Assembly (NCBI GenBank): GCA_963824995.1
Contig: CAWGRK010000010.1
Location: 246,928-270,080 of the forward strand
Length of the DNA stretch: 23,153 nt
From: an uncultured Actinomycetes bacterium
GTDB lineage: Bacteria > Actinomycetota > Acidimicrobiia > Spongiisociales > DATADW01
Reading direction: 5' to 3'
The position numbers are program-made. Every line of letters starts with the position of its first letter. Positions within the stretch are counted from its first letter, which is position 1. This document shows positions 1 through 6,000 of this stretch, in pieces.

Positions 1-3000
1 CTCGTCCCGGGAATAGGACACGGTCGTCTGAGTCCGCCGGCTCGGACACGGCCAATTCCTCCCAGTGGATTGGGTCTCCGCCGGACCAGAGGGGAGATTG
101 GCGACGCACCACACCCGAGACCGCCGAAGCGACGCGGTCGCGGCGCGATCCGAAAATCACCTCCACCCCGAGATTGGCCGGGGCGTACCAGGCCCACTTG
201 GCCGAGTCGGTCATCACCACCCTCGCCTCGGGGTCGAGGATCGGGGTGATATAGGTGCAAGTGTCGCTGACCATCCGAACCCCGGCCGCCTCGAGGACCT
301 CGACATCTGAGCGGGCGGCAGCGACATCTCCGCGACCGGCGTTCACGTAGGTGTCGATCCGCACCTCGCGGCCATCGAGCAGCCGAGCCAGTTCGGCGAG
401 TTCTGTCCTGGAAGCATGGGGAGTGCCAATGCACACTGCGTCGAGCCGGTCCCCGGTCGCCGTGGAAAGCTCGGCTGCCGCGGCCGAGAGAAACCCAGGA
501 TCGACGAGCACCTCGAACTCGGCGGCCTCCCGGCCGCCAAGGGCGTCTTCGAGTGTCGCCGCCTCCGGCGTCACGCCGACGGCGTGGAACATCGCCACCG
601 ACCCGGCAGACGCCGCAGCGGCGCCGACCGCCTTCAACCGGTCCTCATCGGTATCGGGAGGCAAACCGACGAGCACCGGGACCACCGACCCCGCCAGCCG
701 ACCGAGAACGTGGCCAACCACCGGATAGAGGGCGTCATCCTCGAGCCAATCGTCCGGGACGCCGTCGAGGCGGACGACGAGACGGGCCCGCCGCCCGGCG
801 TCGAGGTGGAGCCCAGCGGCGGGCGCCCGACCAGTCACAGCGGCGGAAATGTCGATGAAGTCGCCGTAGCGGCCGGTACGCGCCCCGAGGACGCTGTTGG
901 CGAAGACGATGGCGTTCGACTCTGCCCAGGCAACTTGGTCCCCGAACGACGGACGCTCCATCAGTTGGTACGGGGAGCACGTCCAGGTGGGGCGACATCC
1001 CATCTCGACGTAAGCGTCCATGAGCCGGCGGGCTTGCACGGCCAATTCGGGATCCCCGCGAAAGCGCTCGGGATGGAGCAGGTCGAGCGTGGACACGTTG
1101 AGCGTGGTGGGCACAGCCGCCTTCGTCCCTGCCTCGGCCAAGAGAAGGGCGAAATCGAGACTCGCCTGACCGTGGTAGAGGCAACCGTCCACGTGGGCCC
1201 CGGCGATGTCGAGCAGACGATCCGCACCTAGGGCTTTCGCCGCCCCCACCACCACCTCCATGGCGATCCGCGGACCCTCACCACGGTCACCATCGAGCAT
1301 TCCGATGTCGTCGTCTTCGAGATGAAGTTCGGGTCGCACGCCCGGATTCTGGTCGGGCGGACCTGCCACCTGAGGTGGTGGCTCGGACAAATTTCCGGCC
1401 TCCCGGTCCGCAATCCCCCAATTTTCGGTATTCTGCCAGCCACGCCGAGCCCGGCTGTCTGCGGCCGGGGCGGGGGACCCAATCCATGGGGCGAATCCCG
1501 GTACGCCGGGTAGGGCGCCTTCCGGCCCGAGCCCGTCAGCTAACCCCGTAGGCAGCAGGAAGGAGGCCAGCTTGCTGGCTCTCCGCGGATCGCCGGTCTG
1601 GGACCGGCCGACATGAGGGGGCGGAGAACATGCCGCACCGGAGAGCCGACATAAACCGGCAGATGCGCCGAAGGGTCTTGGTCGCCGATCGCGAGGGGGC
1701 CAACCTGCCCTACTCGAAGGGGCTGATGGCCGCCTCGATCATGGCAACGGGCATCCCGCCGGGCCGGGCCTATGACCTTGCCGAACTCATCGAGCACGAT
1801 CTGCTCTCCTTGCGACAGGACACCGTCGATGCAGACACGCTCTCCGGCATCGCCGCAGATGTCCTGCTCCGGCACGCCGGCGATCACATAGCGCGCGGAT
1901 ATCTCGCCTGGAGGGCGGCTAAGCGCTCCCCGCGCCCAATCGTCGTCCTCATCGGCGGCGCCACCGGTGTGGGCAAGTCGACTGTCGCCACCAAGCTCGC
2001 AGCGCGGCTGGGCATCACGAGAGTGATCCCGACCGACACGGTGCGCGAGGTGATGCGCACCTTCATGCCGCCAATACAAGCGCCAGAGTTGCACTCGTCT
2101 TCCTTCGAGGTGGGCGGGGGGGCCGACGAGCTGATCCATGGGTTCCTCCGCCAGAGCCGATCGGTCGCAACCGGGATCGACGGGCTGCTGGGGAGGATGA
2201 TCGCTGAACACAAGGACTCGATCGTCGAAGGGATCCATCTCGTGCCGGGGATGCTCGACGAGGAGATGCTCCATCGTTTCCGCCTCGAGGCCGCCGTGGT
2301 CAAGGTGCTGCTCACCCTCCCCGATGCCTCGGTCCACCGGGCCCACTTCATCGGTCGCCTGGAGAGCGAGCATGGCCGGCGCCCGGAGCGTTACCTGCGC
2401 AACCTCAGCGACATCAGGAAGATCCAGACCCACCTCGAGGACCTCGCCGGGCCGCATGGGTTCTCACTGGTGGATGCCACCGACCTAGACGGAGCGATCC
2501 AGCAGGTACTCGATCTGGTCGTGGCTGAGGTGACCAGCGTCACTGGGGAGAGCCAGGTGGTCGTCGCCGGGTGACGCCCGCTCGGGCCCTGGTCCTCATC
2601 GACGGCGAGCACCACCCATCTGTGGTCCTGGATGGGCTGGCTGAGTTGCAGCGGCGCGGTCTGGTGCCGGTGGCGGCATTGTTCCTGGGTGGATCTGAGA
2701 AGACGGCCGGTCTGCCCGAATTGCCCATCCCGGTCCATTCCGGCGACCCGAGTGCGGCGCTCCATGACCTGATGGCGCGCTATCTGCCAGATGTCGTCTT
2801 TGACCTAAGCGACGAACCCGTGCTCGACCACCGGGCGCGATTCGCCCTGATTGGGGTGGCTCTCGCCTCGGGCGTCGCCTACGCGGGTGGAGGGTTCCGG
2901 TTCGAACCGCCCGATCTGCCCAGACTGACGACCAGGCCTTCGGTGGCGGTGGTCGGAACCGGCAAGCGGACCGGAAAGACGGCGGTGTCCATCGCGCTGG

Positions 3001-6000
3001 CGCGCCACTGGTCGGCATCCGGGAGAAAACCCGTTGTGGTGACGATGGGGCGAGGAGGCCCCGCAGAGCCCATCGTGCTCGACCCCGCAAACCTCGGCGA
3101 CGCGACTAGTGCGCTGCGCACGTTGGCGAGCCGCGGGCTCCATGCCGCGTCGGACTACGTCGAGGACGCCATCTTCGCCGGCGTCCCCACGGTGGGGACG
3201 AGGCGGATAGGTGCCGGTCCGGCCGGCGTCACCGTCGCCGACACGTTCGCCGCTGGGGTCGCCGCTGCGGATTTGCTGGATCCCGGGCTTCTCATCTTCG
3301 AGGGGAGTGGGACCGCCCTCCCCCCGGCTCGCTGGGATGCGAACGTACTGGTGATGCGGTCCCAGCTCGATCCCGAGTACATCACCGGGTACCTAGGCCC
3401 TTTCCGGCTGGCACTGGCCGACGCCGTCGTTGTCGTGGCCGATGGCGGCTCGGCGGCAGCAGTGGTCCGCCAGATGGCACCCGAGGTGGCGCTCTTCACC
3501 TGTCGCTACCGGGTCGAGCCGACCGTGCCGGTCCAAGGGCGCCGGGTCATGGTCGCCACCACCGCCCCCGAGCCTGCCGGCGACGAGTTGGCCGCCCAGT
3601 TCCGCAACCTCGGCGCGACCTCTGTCGTCGTGGTCCACACCCTCTCGAGGCGCGACCGCCTCCTCGCCGATCTGGAGGGCGCTCCTCCGTGCGACCTCGT
3701 CGTCACCGAGGTGAAGGCCGCGGCTGCCGACGTGGTGTTCCCATGGGCGGACCGGGCCGGAATCCAGGTCGGGCTGCTCCACAACCTGGTCGAGATCGAC
3801 GGGGGTTTGGGGCCACTGGCCGGCCTATTGGAAGAGCGTCTGGCGGCGCCCCGCGAGACTCAACCGAGCACGCGGTAGATCTTGCGTATCGGCTCCCTAC
3901 GGAGCATTCCCCGCACGCGTTCCTGACTATCGACGAGTTCCGGCGAGTCGAGGGCGGCCTCCATCGCCTCCAGCGTCGTCCAACGGGTGACCACGCCGCC
4001 CTCGACGAGTCCGCTCACCCCGGCCTCCTCTGCGATCACCAGATCGATCCCCAGGCAGTCAGGGTGGTCGCGGAAGGCGGGAACGACATCGGCCTCGAAC
4101 AGCGAGATGACCTCCTCGACATCGTCGGGGGAGACCGCGGAGAGGAAGAAGCGGATGTAGCTCACCAGCCCCAACTCGACTTGGAGAACATGCCGGCCAA
4201 TTCGGGATTGCGGTCGAGCGCTCGGGTATTCCGGTCGTATCTGGCGGCCAGCTTCTCGCCGCTCCCCGGGTACATCAGGGTCACCGAGATCGCCTCGGAA
4301 TCGACGGTGACCACGTTGTACGACGGTCTCGTGTAGCCGCGGAGGCGGAAGGAGGAAACTGTCCCGCTGTTGACCACCATGATCCCGTCCACCACCCAGA
4401 TGTGGGGCACGTGCTTATGGCCACACAGGACCAGATCGACCCCGCTCTCCTCGAGCACCGCCAGAACGTCGCCCGCGTCCCACACGGTGTTGCGCTCTCG
4501 TCCGGTTCCCGGGACAGGCACGAGGTGGTGGTGGAGGGCGAATATCCGCAGGTCCGACGGAGTGGTGAACTGCTCCCGGATCCACGGGTAGCGGACCCTC
4601 CCCACCTCCCCCTCGGCGAGGTCGGGCTTGGAGCTGTCCACGGCAACCAGGGTGACCCGCTCAGGCTCGACACCCCTGGCCAGGTCCACCACCACATCGT
4701 TTCCGGCGTCACCCTTCCCGAAATGGTCCTCAAAGTGGACATAGCCGACGTTCTTGGCGTCGTGGTTGCCCGGGATGATCACGGTGAGCAGTTCGTCGAC
4801 CAAAGGTCGCAGCGCATCGCGGGCCATCTGGAACTCGTTGGCGTACCCCTCCTGGGTGAGATCGCCGGCTACCACCACCATGTCTGGCTGAAGGGAGAGA
4901 ATCTCCTCGACGGCATGACTGAGCAGGTCAGGGTCGAAATACTGGGAGCCGCAGTGGATGTCCGACAGCTGGGCGATGGTGAGCACGTCGGTGGCCGATC
5001 CTAACCCCGGTCGCTGGGCGAGAAGTGGTACCCGCCCCGGCGGGCGTTGACCGACTTCCGATACTCGGTTCTATTCGACGTTGACCACGACGGAGTGGTA
5101 GCCGGTCGCTCCGTCGGGGGCAGGGGGAGCGACCTCGTCGGTCTGGGTTTCGCCTGTTCCGTCGGTGGCACGGACCATGATCGAGTGGGTTCCCGAGGTC
5201 GCTTCCCACGGCATCCGCCATTGTCGCCATGTCGTGTCGGCCAGTTCTGCGGCGAGTTCGGCGGGCTGCCATCGACCGCCATCCACCCGCACCTCGACAC
5301 CGCTGATCCCGCGGGTCGGCGCCCATGCGACGCCGGCTATCGCCTGCTGGCCGGGACGGATGGTGGAACCGTCCACTGGAACGTCGATCACGCGACTGCG
5401 TCTTGATCGGTGCCTCCTTGGACCATCCCCGCGGCACCCAGTAGGCGTCGAAGCCGTCCCAGGTGGCGAGTTCGACCTCGGTGAGCCACTTGGTGGCGGA
5501 TACGTATCCGTAGAGACCGGCGACTATCAGCCGAGCCGGGAACCCGTGCTCGAAGGGCAGCGGCTCGCCATTCATACCCACCGCGACCATGGTGTCTCGC
5601 CCGTCGAGCGCCACCTCGGTGGGGAAGCCAACGGTGAAGCCGTCGGCGGAGCGACCCACGATCTGGGTCGCTCCCGGCTGCACGCCCGCTCGCTCGAGCA
5701 GGACCGGCAGCGGGACTCCCAGCCACTTCGCAGTGCCTATCAGGTCGCCCCCGACCTCGTTGCTCACACAGGCGATGGTGATGTGACGCTCCACCATGGG
5801 CATGTCGATCAGTTCCAAGAAGTCGACCTCGAAGGGGCGATTCACCATCCCGGTGAATCCGAGTCGCCAGGTGGTCAGATCCACCCTCGGCACGGTGAGC
5901 GCGGTGTCGATCCGATAGAACTCGGCATTGGGTGTGACCAGGGGGGAGAGGCCCTGGATCTGGAACGATGCCCGGCCCGGAGGCGCGGCGACCGTCTCGG

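What a model noticed while it worked through the whole genome (the two positions that open the first line are those of the whole stretch)
1433..3878. c-di-AMP riboswitch in front of a 2-phosphoglycerate kinase / cyclic 2,3-diphosphoglycerate synthetase operon
A ydaO-type c-di-AMP riboswitch (C10:248360-248496, + strand) lies 61 nt upstream of a two-gene operon: g02544, a homologue of archaeal 2-phosphoglycerate kinase, and g02545, a cyclic 2,3-diphosphoglycerate (cDPG) synthetase that keeps the Walker A loop and the substrate-binding residues of the solved Methanothermus enzyme. The genome thus encodes the route 2-PG -> 2,3-DPG -> cDPG, an anionic solute so far reported only from hyperthermophilic methanogens, and puts it under the second messenger that governs osmolyte and potassium balance. 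A Metallophos phosphodiesterase (g02547) that travels with the pair in most relatives is a candidate for cDPG breakdown.
Evidence so far: Rfam RF00379 76.8 bits against a cut of 38, model 1-134 of 134 (rna.tsv; call 106). g02544: 34% identity over 291 aa to Methanopyrus pgk2, E 5e-43; g02545: 41% over 427 aa to Rubrobacter CpgS, E 1e-84; g02545 to PDB 8ork cDPG synthetase E 2e-65 with GTGKRxGKT (K145,R146) and GGxEK (E45,K46) aligned identically. The two genes overlap by 4 nt. The riboswitch stands at the same place in all 5 congeners and in 2 further Acidimicrobiia whose CpgS is only 54-55% identical (L091, L092): 7 of the 20 loci scanned out of 23 fetched; 6 other order members and 13 Thermoleophilia-type or other loci have cpgS without it. 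tblastn on 29 relatives' loci: a 2PGK homologue lies beside cpgS in 28 of 29 (4 cut b [...]
(Added by a program. Inside this text positions count along the whole contig: contig position 246,928 is position 1 of the stretch shown here. "Call 12" and the like, gene names such as g00115 and contig names such as C1 are that model's own, and its searches are not shown. The text may have been shortened before it was handed on; [...] marks where a part breaks off. The agent that wrote the report below was given it as the finding of a first reader that could run no searches.)

Follow-up and report, generated by a model that had tools for sequence, protein, structure and literature searches.

The report
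c-di-AMP riboswitch controlling cyclic-diphosphoglycerate genes
A genuine c-di-AMP-sensing RNA switch sits in front of the two genes that should make the charged solute cyclic 2,3-diphosphoglycerate in an uncultured soil actinobacterium, which ties this supposedly archaea-only compound to the bacterial signal for salt and potassium balance.

Summary
Window 1433-1569 (+) is a full-length c-di-AMP riboswitch (RF00379, 76.8 bits against a cut-off of 38). It is the only one found in this genome. 60 nt downstream lies a 2-phosphoglycerate-kinase (2PGK) homologue (1630-2574). It overlaps by 4 nt a cyclic-2,3-diphosphoglycerate synthetase (CpgS, 2571-3878) that keeps 10 of 11 checked ligand-binding residues of the solved Methanothermus enzyme.

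The same layout (riboswitch, 2PGK, CpgS, then convergent ABM and Metallophos genes) recurs in 5 congeners, in 3 other genera (CpgS 53-55% identical) and on one metagenome contig.

- The switch's constant partner is one 2PGK clade, not CpgS. All 12 genomes carrying that clade have the switch, and 3 of the 12 have no cpgS behind it.
- In this order the switch otherwise precedes a cation/proton antiporter (17 of 28 hits), which gives an ion-homeostasis context.
- Most cpgS loci lack the switch (78 of 80).

The likely mechanism is translational OFF control, with solute made when c-di-AMP is low. The sense of the switch and the chemistry are inferred, and my test of the anti-SD relay did not beat shuffled controls. 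This is a new target for a known riboswitch class.

The parts
1429..1434 (+). -10-like promoter hexamer TATTCT (inferred)
   Evidence: A TANNNT hexamer stands at the 5' edge of the Rfam match in 13 of 13 riboswitch-2PGK leaders compared. The sigma-70 consensus scan found no promoter.
1433..1569 (+). c-di-AMP riboswitch aptamer (RF00379)
   Evidence: 76.8 bits against a cut-off of 38, model 1-134 of 134. 129.7 bits with my own order-level model R1.
1518..1523 (+). Aptamer loop CCTTCC, the 5' partner of the pseudoknot
   Evidence: CTTCC is invariant in 28 of 28 riboswitches of the order. It is complementary to the tail at 1558-1563. G087 covaries: loop GUCUUCC with tail GGAAGAC.
1558..1566 (+). 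3' tail GGAAGGAGG: pseudoknot partner and SD-like sequence
   Evidence: 24 of 27 riboswitches of the order have at least 6 contiguous complementary bases between loop and tail. In the antiporter-type leaders the likely start codon of the antiporter ORF lies within about 12 nt of the end of the Rfam match.
1562..1584 (+). Hairpin 1: GGAGGCCAG / CTTG loop / CTGGCTCTCC (tail paired with a CUCUCC anti-SD-like strand)
   Evidence: The stem is kept while the tetraloop varies among congeners (CTTG, CTCG, TTCG, CTAG, TCCG). Its pairing energy beats 300 shuffles in 10 of 12 leaders, z -1.6 to -3.5.
1593..1607 (+). Hairpin 2: CCGGTC TGG GACCGG
   Evidence: A hairpin stands at this place in 11 of 12 leaders, with a different sequence in each lineage.
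1615..1626 (+). Shine-Dalgarno region GAGGGGGCGGAG before ATG 1630
   Evidence: Read from the sequence. No in-frame start lies between the stop at 1549-1551 and 1630.
1630..2574 (+). 2-phosphoglycerate kinase homologue (weak ATP-cone match plus P-loop kinase), 314 aa
   Evidence: sources name close relatives '2-phosphoglycerate kinase'. It is the only 2PGK match in each genus-g1 genome.
2571..3878 (+). Cyclic 2,3-diphosphoglycerate synthetase homologue, 435 aa
   Evidence: (PF27272). Residues mapped against section 8 of PMC10690619.
3860..4174 (-). Small ABM-domain protein, 104 aa, downstream of Metallophos; its 3' end overlaps the 3' end of cpgS by 19 nt
   Evidence: PF03992, E 1.7e-5, 25.3 bits against a cut-off of 23.1. 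Conserved beside Metallophos in relatives.
4162..4986 (-). Metallophos phosphoesterase, 274 aa, convergent with the operon
   Evidence: PF00149, E 1.1e-19. Found in 30 of 80 cpgS loci and in all 10 loci with the window's layout.

Best explanation
A c-di-AMP riboswitch in the 5' leader controls a two-gene operon. The operon encodes a 2-phosphoglycerate kinase (2-PG to 2,3-DPG) and a cyclic 2,3-diphosphoglycerate synthetase (2,3-DPG to cDPG).

Most likely it is an OFF switch acting on translation. Bound c-di-AMP would stabilise the pseudoknot between loop CCUUCC and tail GGAAGG. That would withdraw the tail from hairpin 1 and favour occlusion of the ribosome-binding site. When c-di-AMP is low (potassium demand, hyperosmotic stress) the operon would be expressed. 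The cell would then make a polyanionic organic solute that can balance accumulated K+, as cDPG does in methanogens.

Shown:
- the riboswitch by family model, the pseudoknot covariation and hairpin 1;
- the gene identities by homology and the conserved ligand-binding residues in CpgS;
- recurrence of the layout in several lineages;
- the antiporter as the switch's other target in this order;
- DisA in the genome.

Inferred: ligand binding, the OFF sense, translational rather than transcriptional action, the enzyme activities, cDPG as the product and its osmotic role.
For: Riboswitch:
- RF00379 at 76.8 bits against a cut-off of 38, full length, and the only one found in the genome.
- DisA is present, with DAC and DisA-linker domains, next to a RadA-like gene.

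Recurrence:
- The same layout (switch, 2PGK, CpgS with a 4-nt overlap where checked, convergent ABM and Metallophos) occurs in 5 congeners, in G401, G465 and G545 of three other genera and on metagenome contig L152.
- All 12 of 401 order genomes with a 2PGK match at E<=1e-78 carry the switch directly upstream. Three of them were picked by that threshold before the RNA was looked for.
- The 13 switch-linked 2PGKs form one side of a branch (SH-aLRT 73; an 11-row core at 99).

Pathway coupling:
- cpgS occurs in 23 and 2PGK in 24 of 151 order genomes, and all 23 cpgS genomes have 2PGK.
- 2PGK is adjacent to cpgS in 75 of 80 loci.
- Genus-g1 genomes have one 2PGK match each.

CpgS active site:
- Identical: E45/K46, K145/R146/K149/T150, D208, T353 and E404/K406 of the Methanothermus enzyme.
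- Changed: E305 is D.

Physiological context:
- 17 of 28 riboswitches in the order sample precede a Na_H_Exchanger gene and 9 precede 2PGK.
- G401 has both kinds.

Mechanism:
- Loop-tail complementarity of at least 6 nt in 24 of 27 riboswitches, with covariation in G087.
- Hairpin 1 beats shuffles in 10 of 12 leaders.
- No U-tract terminator on the + strand.
- c-di-AMP binding ends transcription of Streptomyces rpfA (review PMC10117811, passages). That all characterised members of the class switch genes off is from recall.

Expression (weak): contigs from three RNA libraries cover parts of both genes. Three of them bridge the 2PGK/cpgS junction with 0-3 differences.
Against: - No chemistry: no ligand-binding, enzyme or metabolite data exist for any bacterium. 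Two papers call cDPG exclusive to hyperthermophilic methanogens.
- The 2PGK scores lie under NCBIfam's equivalog cut-offs, and the family includes a mevalonate-3-phosphate 5-kinase model. Substrate is therefore not fixed by homology.
- In 3 of 13 switch-linked loci no cpgS follows. In G087 (94% complete) no cpgS was found with a profile.
- 78 of 80 cpgS loci have no switch, so the link is a lineage speciality.
- The proposed anti-SD:SD pairing is no better than shuffled controls (z -0.25 to +1.2 in 12 leaders).
- The pseudoknot and hairpin 1 share only 2 nt, so both might form at once.
- Whole-leader folding is not unusually stable (z -0.50).
- RNA-library contigs may stem from DNA, and none bridges the aptamer and the ORF.
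Confidence: 0.6

Rival explanations
1. The switch really governs the kinase, and cDPG is not the relevant end product. On this reading the switch-linked 2PGK clade makes 2,3-DPG, or phosphorylates another small acid, as the regulated output. cpgS was merely recruited behind it in some lineages.
For: The switch follows the 2PGK clade in 12 of 12 genomes, but cpgS follows in only 9 of those 12. G004 and G016 (unpublished) have a lone switch-controlled 2PGK plus a second paralogue beside cpgS. G087 has 2PGK overlapping a cupin gene and no detectable cpgS. The family holds kinases of other substrates.
Against: In the window's genus the switch-linked 2PGK is the only 2PGK match in each genome and overlaps cpgS by 4 nt. 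2PGK and cpgS share nearly the same phyletic pattern, 24 and 23 of 151. A regulated first step feeding a cpgS elsewhere would explain the two f5 genomes. G087 is incomplete, and its contig ends 1.6 kb after the kinase.
Confidence: 0.2
2. The riboswitch is an ON switch or acts on transcription. Hairpin 1 would be an actinobacterial-type terminator without a U-tract that forms when c-di-AMP is absent. On this reading the solute is made at high c-di-AMP.
For: Hairpin 1 is the best-supported element of the expression platform and competes with the pseudoknot tail. The anti-SD:SD pairing is not better than chance. The Streptomyces rpfA riboswitch is reported to act by transcription termination (PMC10117811, passages).
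Against: No U-run follows hairpin 1. In the sibling antiporter leaders the pseudoknot tail itself is the SD-like sequence, within about 12 nt of the likely start codon, which gives OFF on ligand binding. From recall, characterised members of the class switch genes off. Making a K+ counter-ion when the 'K+ replete' signal is high makes less physiological sense.
Confidence: 0.2
3. The product is cDPG, but it serves as a phosphate or energy store or a general stress protectant rather than as an osmotic K+ counter-ion. On this reading c-di-AMP control reflects growth state.
For: The wider cpgS-2PGK pair is found in at least 579 species genomes, and 78 of the 80 loci fetched have no switch. Its basic role therefore does not need c-di-AMP.
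Against: The only other targets of the switch in this order are cation/proton antiporters (17 of 28). c-di-AMP is tied to potassium and osmolyte balance (PMC10117811, passages).
Confidence: 0.1

Closest known systems
c-di-AMP (ydaO/yuaA) riboswitch class, Rfam RF00379; e.g. Bacillus subtilis kimA/ktrA leaders and the Streptomyces rpfA leader
   Same: Full-length match to the family model, a pseudoknot between an internal loop and the 3' tail, and a position in a 5' leader on the coding strand. The regulon theme of ion and osmotic balance is shared.
   Different: The target is new. [quoted passage not shown] No held paper pairs the riboswitch with 2-phosphoglycerate kinase or diphosphoglycerate. 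There is also an extra 47-66-nt spacer with two hairpins between the aptamer and the start codon.
cDPG pathway of Methanothermus fervidus (2PGK plus cDPG synthetase, PDB 8ORK/8ORU)
   Same: CpgS aligns over residues 5-415 with E 2e-65, and 10 of 11 checked ligand or catalytic residues are identical. A 2PGK homologue is adjacent.
   Different: The host is a high-GC actinobacterium whose sequence occurs in soil metagenome runs, not a hyperthermophilic methanogen. Control by an RNA sensor is not described for the archaeal genes in the passages and section I read. Activity has not been tested.
c-di-AMP riboswitch before a CPA-type cation/proton antiporter in Acidimicrobiia (earlier notes e1-4606679, e1-1178323)
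   Same: The aptamer subtype is the same (loop CCUUCC, tail GGAAGG) and so is the order. G401 carries both units.
   Different: There the likely start codon lies within about 12 nt of the tail, so the tail can serve as the SD. Here the tail pairs with a decoy strand, and the real SD lies about 50 nt further on.
Bacterial Metallophos-CpgS-2PGK clusters of Actinomycetota (earlier notes such as e1-3225155, e1-4364099, e1-7462063)
   Same: The enzyme families are the same, as are the partner phosphoesterase and the small ABM protein.
   Different: The gene order is inverted: 2PGK then CpgS, seen in 3 of 80 loci against CpgS then 2PGK in 72. The riboswitch is present in only 2 of those 80.

Membership tests
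c-di-AMP riboswitch (RF00379) | Covariance-model match above the curated gathering score over the whole model | tested here: met
   76.8 bits against 38, model positions 1-134 of 134, E 1.6e-16.
c-di-AMP riboswitch (RF00379) | Pseudoknot between an internal hairpin loop and the 3' tail (that the class has one is from recall) | tested here: met
   Loop CCTTCC 1518-1523 pairs with tail GGAAGG 1558-1563. 24 of 27 relatives have at least 6 complementary bases. G087 shows a compensatory change.
c-di-AMP riboswitch (RF00379) | Lies in the 5' leader of a gene on the same strand, in a genome that makes c-di-AMP | tested here: met
   60 nt upstream of ATG 1630. DisA is present in the genome.
c-di-AMP riboswitch (RF00379) | Binds c-di-AMP and changes expression | not testable with these tools
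   Needs in-line probing or ITC and reporter assays.
[quoted passage not shown] | Full-length homology to the solved enzyme | tested here: met
   8ork E 2.2e-65 over residues 5-415; 9sxb E 1.1e-62. PF27272 is precomputed for the protein. The held Pfam copy has no such model.
[quoted passage not shown] | Walker A GTGKRxGKT with K145/R146/K149/T150; E45/K46 from the partner subunit; Mg ligand D208; E404/K406; T353 | tested here: met
   The window residues K132/R133/K136/T137, E43/K44, D195, E380/K382 and T331 are identical. E305 aligns with D291. P335 could not be placed. These residues are invariant in 23 relatives.
[quoted passage not shown] | Converts 2,3-DPG plus ATP to cDPG | not testable with these tools
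   Needs an enzyme assay or 31P-NMR.
2-phosphoglycerate kinase (NCBIfam NF003259 / NF008994) | Score at or above the equivalog cut-off | tested here: not met
   233 bits against 343, and 254 against 603. The alignment is full length, residues 15-305 on model positions 5-296 of 306. I therefore call it a 2PGK homologue, not a proven 2PGK.
2-phosphoglycerate kinase (NCBIfam NF003259 / NF008994) | P-loop kinase core, with an N-terminal ATP-cone-like region | tested here: inconclusive
   P-loop GGATGVGKST is present. P-loop kinase families match weakly. ATP-cone scores 22.3 bits, under its cut-off of 25.8.
2-phosphoglycerate kinase (NCBIfam NF003259 / NF008994) | Genomic coupling to cpgS | tested here: met
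   Adjacent in 75 of 80 loci. Phyletic patterns are 24 and 23 of 151 genomes, with all 23 shared.
cDPG hydrolase (role proposed for the Metallophos gene) | Hydrolyses cDPG; co-occurs with the pathway | tested here: inconclusive
   Present in 30 of 80 cpgS loci and in all 10 loci with the window's layout. It is convergent here and not under the switch. Activity is not testable with these tools.

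The most novel reading that the evidence does not exclude
In a group of mesophilic soil Acidimicrobiia, c-di-AMP directly gates de novo synthesis of a polyanionic phosphorylated solute (cDPG or its precursor 2,3-DPG). The solute would serve as the organic counter-ion for K+. The whole riboswitch regulon of these cells would then be one cation/proton antiporter plus this anion pathway. That would be the first bacterial role for cDPG and the first second-messenger control of its synthesis in any organism.
Probability: 0.4. Interest if true: 0.8.

Novelty: new variant of a known kind. Interest (0 to 1): 0.65.

Why it matters
Two papers describe cDPG as confined to hyperthermophilic methanogens (abstract, passages). 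Yet cpgS-2PGK pairs are common in uncultured Actinomycetota: at least 579 species genomes. Nobody knows what they do there.

A c-di-AMP riboswitch in front of the pair is the first regulatory clue, and it points to potassium and osmotic balance rather than heat protection. It also turns the question into simple experiments: RNA-ligand binding, reporter fusions, and 31P-NMR after expressing the two genes.

For the c-di-AMP field it adds a biosynthetic pathway for an organic anion to a regulon so far described as transporters and cell-wall enzymes (PMC10117811, passages). It also shows a second expression-platform design derived from the same aptamer subtype.

Tried and rejected
- **Leader peptide.** A 14-codon uORF starts at TTG 1572 with a good SD, but it occurs only in the window. 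The TTG lies in the variable loop of hairpin 1 and is absent in all 5 congeners. Rejected.
- **Intrinsic terminator.** None was found on the + strand in 1250-4300.
- **Anti-SD relay.** In all 12 leaders the CUCUCC strand can pair with the SD (-11 to -20 kcal/mol), but shuffled middle segments do as well (z -0.25 to +1.2). I keep the model only as an inference.
- **Constrained folding.** The mean SD pairing probability rose from 0.55 to 0.73 in the window and from 0.49 to 0.86 in G087. It changed little in L152, G004 and G016.
- **Class-level search.** RF00379 was found in 8 of 151 genomes, all of the window's own order, so the range was not extended.
- **Metagenome scan with the 2PGK alignment.** 1 of 80 loci carries the switch.
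- **RNA evidence.** Only assembled contigs were available. None bridges the aptamer and the ORF. The depth peak at 1502-1602 comes from 44-nt partial matches to the conserved riboswitch core of other organisms.
- **Orthologue of the switch-linked antiporter in the own genome.** The best match is 30% identical, E 1e-15.
- **Literature.** Nelson et al. 2013 (PMC3830699) is not held, so its gene list is cited only through the review. A five-term search for cDPG synthetase in actinobacteria was poorly posed and returned unrelated papers.
- **Not run.** No structure prediction or complex prediction was run. CpgS has solved relatives, and no binding claim is made.

Full report
**1. Observation**

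Rfam finds one family above threshold in the 23-kb window. It is the c-di-AMP riboswitch RF00379 at 1433-1569 on the + strand, at 76.8 bits against a gathering score of 38, E 1.6e-16, covering model positions 1-134 of 134. It is the only RF00379 match in the window's genome, G000 (2.9 Mb, 17 contigs, 85% complete).

60 nt downstream begins ORF 1630-2574 (314 aa). ORF 2571-3878 (435 aa) overlaps it by 4 nt. No in-frame start codon lies between the stop at 1549-1551 and ATG 1630 (read).

The genome encodes DisA, with DAC and DisA-linker domains, next to a RadA-like gene. It also has one open frame of 367 aa matching PF01663. That is the family to which the actinobacterial c-di-AMP phosphodiesterase AtaC belongs (PMC10117811, passages).

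**2. The two genes**

*First protein.* It matches the NCBIfam 2-phosphoglycerate kinase models over their whole length: NF003259 at 233 bits, and NF008994 at 254 bits. Both scores are below the equivalog cut-offs of 343 and 603. A mevalonate-3-phosphate 5-kinase model of the same family also matches, at 77 bits. Pfam sees weak P-loop kinase matches and a sub-threshold ATP-cone. No solved relative appears below E 0.08. Sources name its close relatives '2-phosphoglycerate kinase', 'zeta toxin family protein' or hypothetical. I therefore call it a 2PGK homologue.

*Second protein.* It matches the solved cDPG synthetases 8ork/8oru (E 2e-65) and 9sxb (E 1e-62). Section 8 of PMC10690619 names the residues that hold 2,3-DPG, Mg and ADP. 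In the printed alignment they map as follows:

| Methanothermus residue | Window residue |
|---|---|
| E45 / K46 | E43 / K44 |
| K145 / R146 / K149 / T150 | K132 / R133 / K136 / T137 |
| D208 | D195 |
| T353 | T331 |
| E404 / K406 | E380 / K382 |
| E305 | D291 |
| P335 | could not be placed |

All the identical ones are invariant in an alignment of 23 relatives.

**3. The pair as a pathway**

By record title, nearly all of the 80 loci fetched are MAGs of Actinomycetota.
- In the 80 best loci, a 2PGK homologue lies beside cpgS in 75. Three of the five misses are cut just after cpgS.
- The usual order is CpgS then 2PGK (72 loci). 2PGK then CpgS is seen in 3 loci.
- In a sample of 151 genomes of the window's order, cpgS is found in 23 and 2PGK in 24. 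All 23 cpgS genomes have 2PGK, and only G087 has the kinase alone.
- Each genome of the window's genus has a single 2PGK match.

**4. How far the riboswitch link reaches**

All five congeners have RF00379 about 60 nt before the 2PGK start, followed by cpgS. Of the 17 other cpgS-bearing genomes in the 151-genome order sample, 15 have no RF00379 match anywhere. Of 50 cpgS-bearing species genomes from the wider collection, 3 have one. With my own model R1, 2 of the 80 cpgS loci carry it, and both are congeners.

In G004 and G016 (both unpublished, so these statements rest on them) the riboswitch is on another contig than cpgS. It precedes a lone 2PGK paralogue, 52-54% identical to the window's. 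That gene is followed by convergent ACT-domain and PF01663 genes. cpgS lies elsewhere, beside a second paralogue that is 46-47% identical.

In G087 (94% complete) the switch precedes a 2PGK (53% identical) that overlaps a cupin gene by 4 nt. No cpgS was found there with profile A1 at E<=0.001.

I then searched 401 order genomes for 2PGK at E<=1e-78. I chose this threshold after seeing the first nine cases, so it is post hoc. The search returned 12 genomes, three of them new: G401, G465 and G545, from three further genera of family f4. All three proved to have RF00379 (82.8-89.6 bits), then 2PGK, then CpgS (53-55% identical), with convergent ABM and Metallophos genes.

A metagenome scan with a 2PGK alignment gave 80 loci. 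Only one was more than 50% identical (L152, 57%), and only that one carries the switch. It has the same five-part layout and a 4-nt overlap.

In a tree of 51 2PGK sequences, the 13 switch-linked ones form one side of a branch (SH-aLRT 73; an 11-row core at 99; 0 of 500 label shuffles as clustered). In an earlier 56-row tree they fell into two starred groups within an open polytomy. For these trees I sub-sampled the non-linked rows: every 4th or 5th genome locus and every 5th or 7th metagenome locus.

**5. What else the switch controls**

In the 151-genome order sample, RF00379 occurs 28 times in 27 genomes.

| Gene that follows | Hits (of 28) |
|---|---|
| Na_H_Exchanger (PF00999) | 17 |
| 2PGK homologue | 9 |
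| No clear family | 2 |

G401 has both kinds. In a class-wide sample of 151 genomes, the 8 with a match all belong to this order. Earlier notes of this scan describe the antiporter pairing independently.

**6. Expression platform**

*Pseudoknot.* The aptamer loop CCUUCC (1518-1523) is complementary to the 3' tail GGAAGG (1558-1563). 24 of 27 riboswitches of the order show at least 6 contiguous complementary bases, and 3 show 5. One (L117) was not evaluated because the script stopped. G087 has a compensatory change: GUCUUCC with GGAAGAC.

*Antiporter leaders.* The likely start codon of the antiporter ORF lies within about 12 nt of the end of the Rfam match, so the tail can be the SD.

*2PGK leaders.* Here 47-66 nt intervene.
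- The tail pairs with a CUCUCC-type strand in hairpin 1 (1562-1584). Its stem is kept while its tetraloop varies among congeners.
- Hairpin 1's energy beats 300 shuffles in 10 of 12 leaders. The two f5 leaders are the exceptions.
- A second hairpin (1593-1607) is present in 11 of 12 leaders, with unrelated sequences.
- The SD region (1615-1626) follows.

*Proposed relay.* Ligand would stabilise the pseudoknot, which would free the anti-SD strand to cover the SD, giving OFF. This fits the possible pairings. But the anti-SD:SD energy is not better than shuffled controls, and the pseudoknot and hairpin 1 share only 2 nt.

*Other elements.* No U-tract terminator is present. A -10-like TANNNT hexamer stands at the 5' edge of the aptamer in 13 of 13 leaders.

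The sense and the level of control therefore remain inferred. I put OFF at roughly two in three.

**7. Neighbours**

Convergent with the operon are a Metallophos gene (4162-4986) and a 104-aa ABM-domain gene (3860-4174). The 3' end of the ABM gene overlaps the 3' end of cpgS by 19 nt. The pair accompanies all ten loci with the window's layout. Metallophos is within 4 kb of cpgS in only 30 of 80 wider loci, and ABM in 7. Being convergent, they are not under the switch. A role in cDPG breakdown is possible but untested.

**8. Expression data**

Only assembled contigs of public runs could be laid. Two rhizosphere and one soil RNA library hold short contigs, 0-8 differences each, over parts of both genes. 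Three of them bridge the 2PGK/cpgS junction. None bridges the aptamer and the ORF, and DNA carry-over cannot be excluded.

**9. Literature**

- PMC10690619 (abstract, passages and section 8) and PMC12136491 (passages) describe cDPG as confined to hyperthermophilic methanogens.
- No held paper contains 'c-di-AMP riboswitch' with 'diphosphoglycerate', 'c-di-AMP' with '2-phosphoglycerate kinase', or 'ydaO' with 'diphosphoglycerate'.
- The seven listed papers that contain 'diphosphoglycerate synthetase' are, by title, on archaea or general reviews of extremophiles and solutes (listing).
[quoted passage not shown] In Streptomyces the switch stands before cell-wall hydrolases.

**10. Verdict**

It is best described as a c-di-AMP riboswitch attached to one clade of 2PGK genes, most often as a 2PGK-CpgS operon. 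Together with the antiporter target, this makes an osmotic or K+ counter-ion role for the product the leading reading. The chemistry, ligand binding and sense of the switch are untested. It is a new target and a new platform design for a known riboswitch class.

Noticed in passing
L083 (G004:C81) 2657-4195 and L084 (G016:C235) 2281-3805; both genomes are unpublished: Directly downstream of the riboswitch-controlled lone 2PGK, and convergent with it, lie an ACT-domain gene and a PF01663 type I phosphodiesterase gene. PF01663 is the family of the actinobacterial c-di-AMP phosphodiesterase AtaC. This may be a c-di-AMP degrading enzyme next to a c-di-AMP-controlled gene.
   Followed up: partly
L118 (G087:C71) 5043-6612: In G087 the switch-linked 2PGK overlaps by 4 nt a Cupin_2 gene. 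An ORF of more than 276 aa with no Pfam match follows and runs off the contig. No cpgS was found in this genome.
   Followed up: partly
L225 (G401:C274) 833-2481: G401 carries two c-di-AMP riboswitches, one before the 2PGK-CpgS operon and one before a Na_H_Exchanger gene. The two regulon members therefore coexist in one genome.
   Followed up: yes
L089 (G029) 2395-3698 and L090 (G039) 2336-3642: In two congeners the cpgS match is split into 2 or 3 frames. This could be a frameshift or an assembly error, and I did not resolve which.
   Followed up: no
L098 (G112) 1-1498: The antiporter gene behind the riboswitch is split into two ORFs, which suggests a frameshift or an assembly error.
   Followed up: no
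window 2-1390 (-): Divergent from the riboswitch is an AcnX-family gene (PF04412, 413 bits). Its best NCBIfam match is cis-3-hydroxy-L-proline dehydratase, below the cut-off. It is conserved at this place in all five congeners.
   Followed up: no
window 7489-8573 (+): A methyladenine glycosylase ORF (7489-8169) overlaps a 311-aa ORF whose SelR/MsrB domain covers only residues 196-309. The real msrB start is probably much later than 7638.
   Followed up: no
window 18016-21612 (+): An ordinary dnaK-grpE-dnaJ operon. The rest of the window is housekeeping: Ada/Ogt, UDG, a thioredoxin-reductase-like gene, a zinc ADH, DUF4015 and RDD.
   Followed up: no
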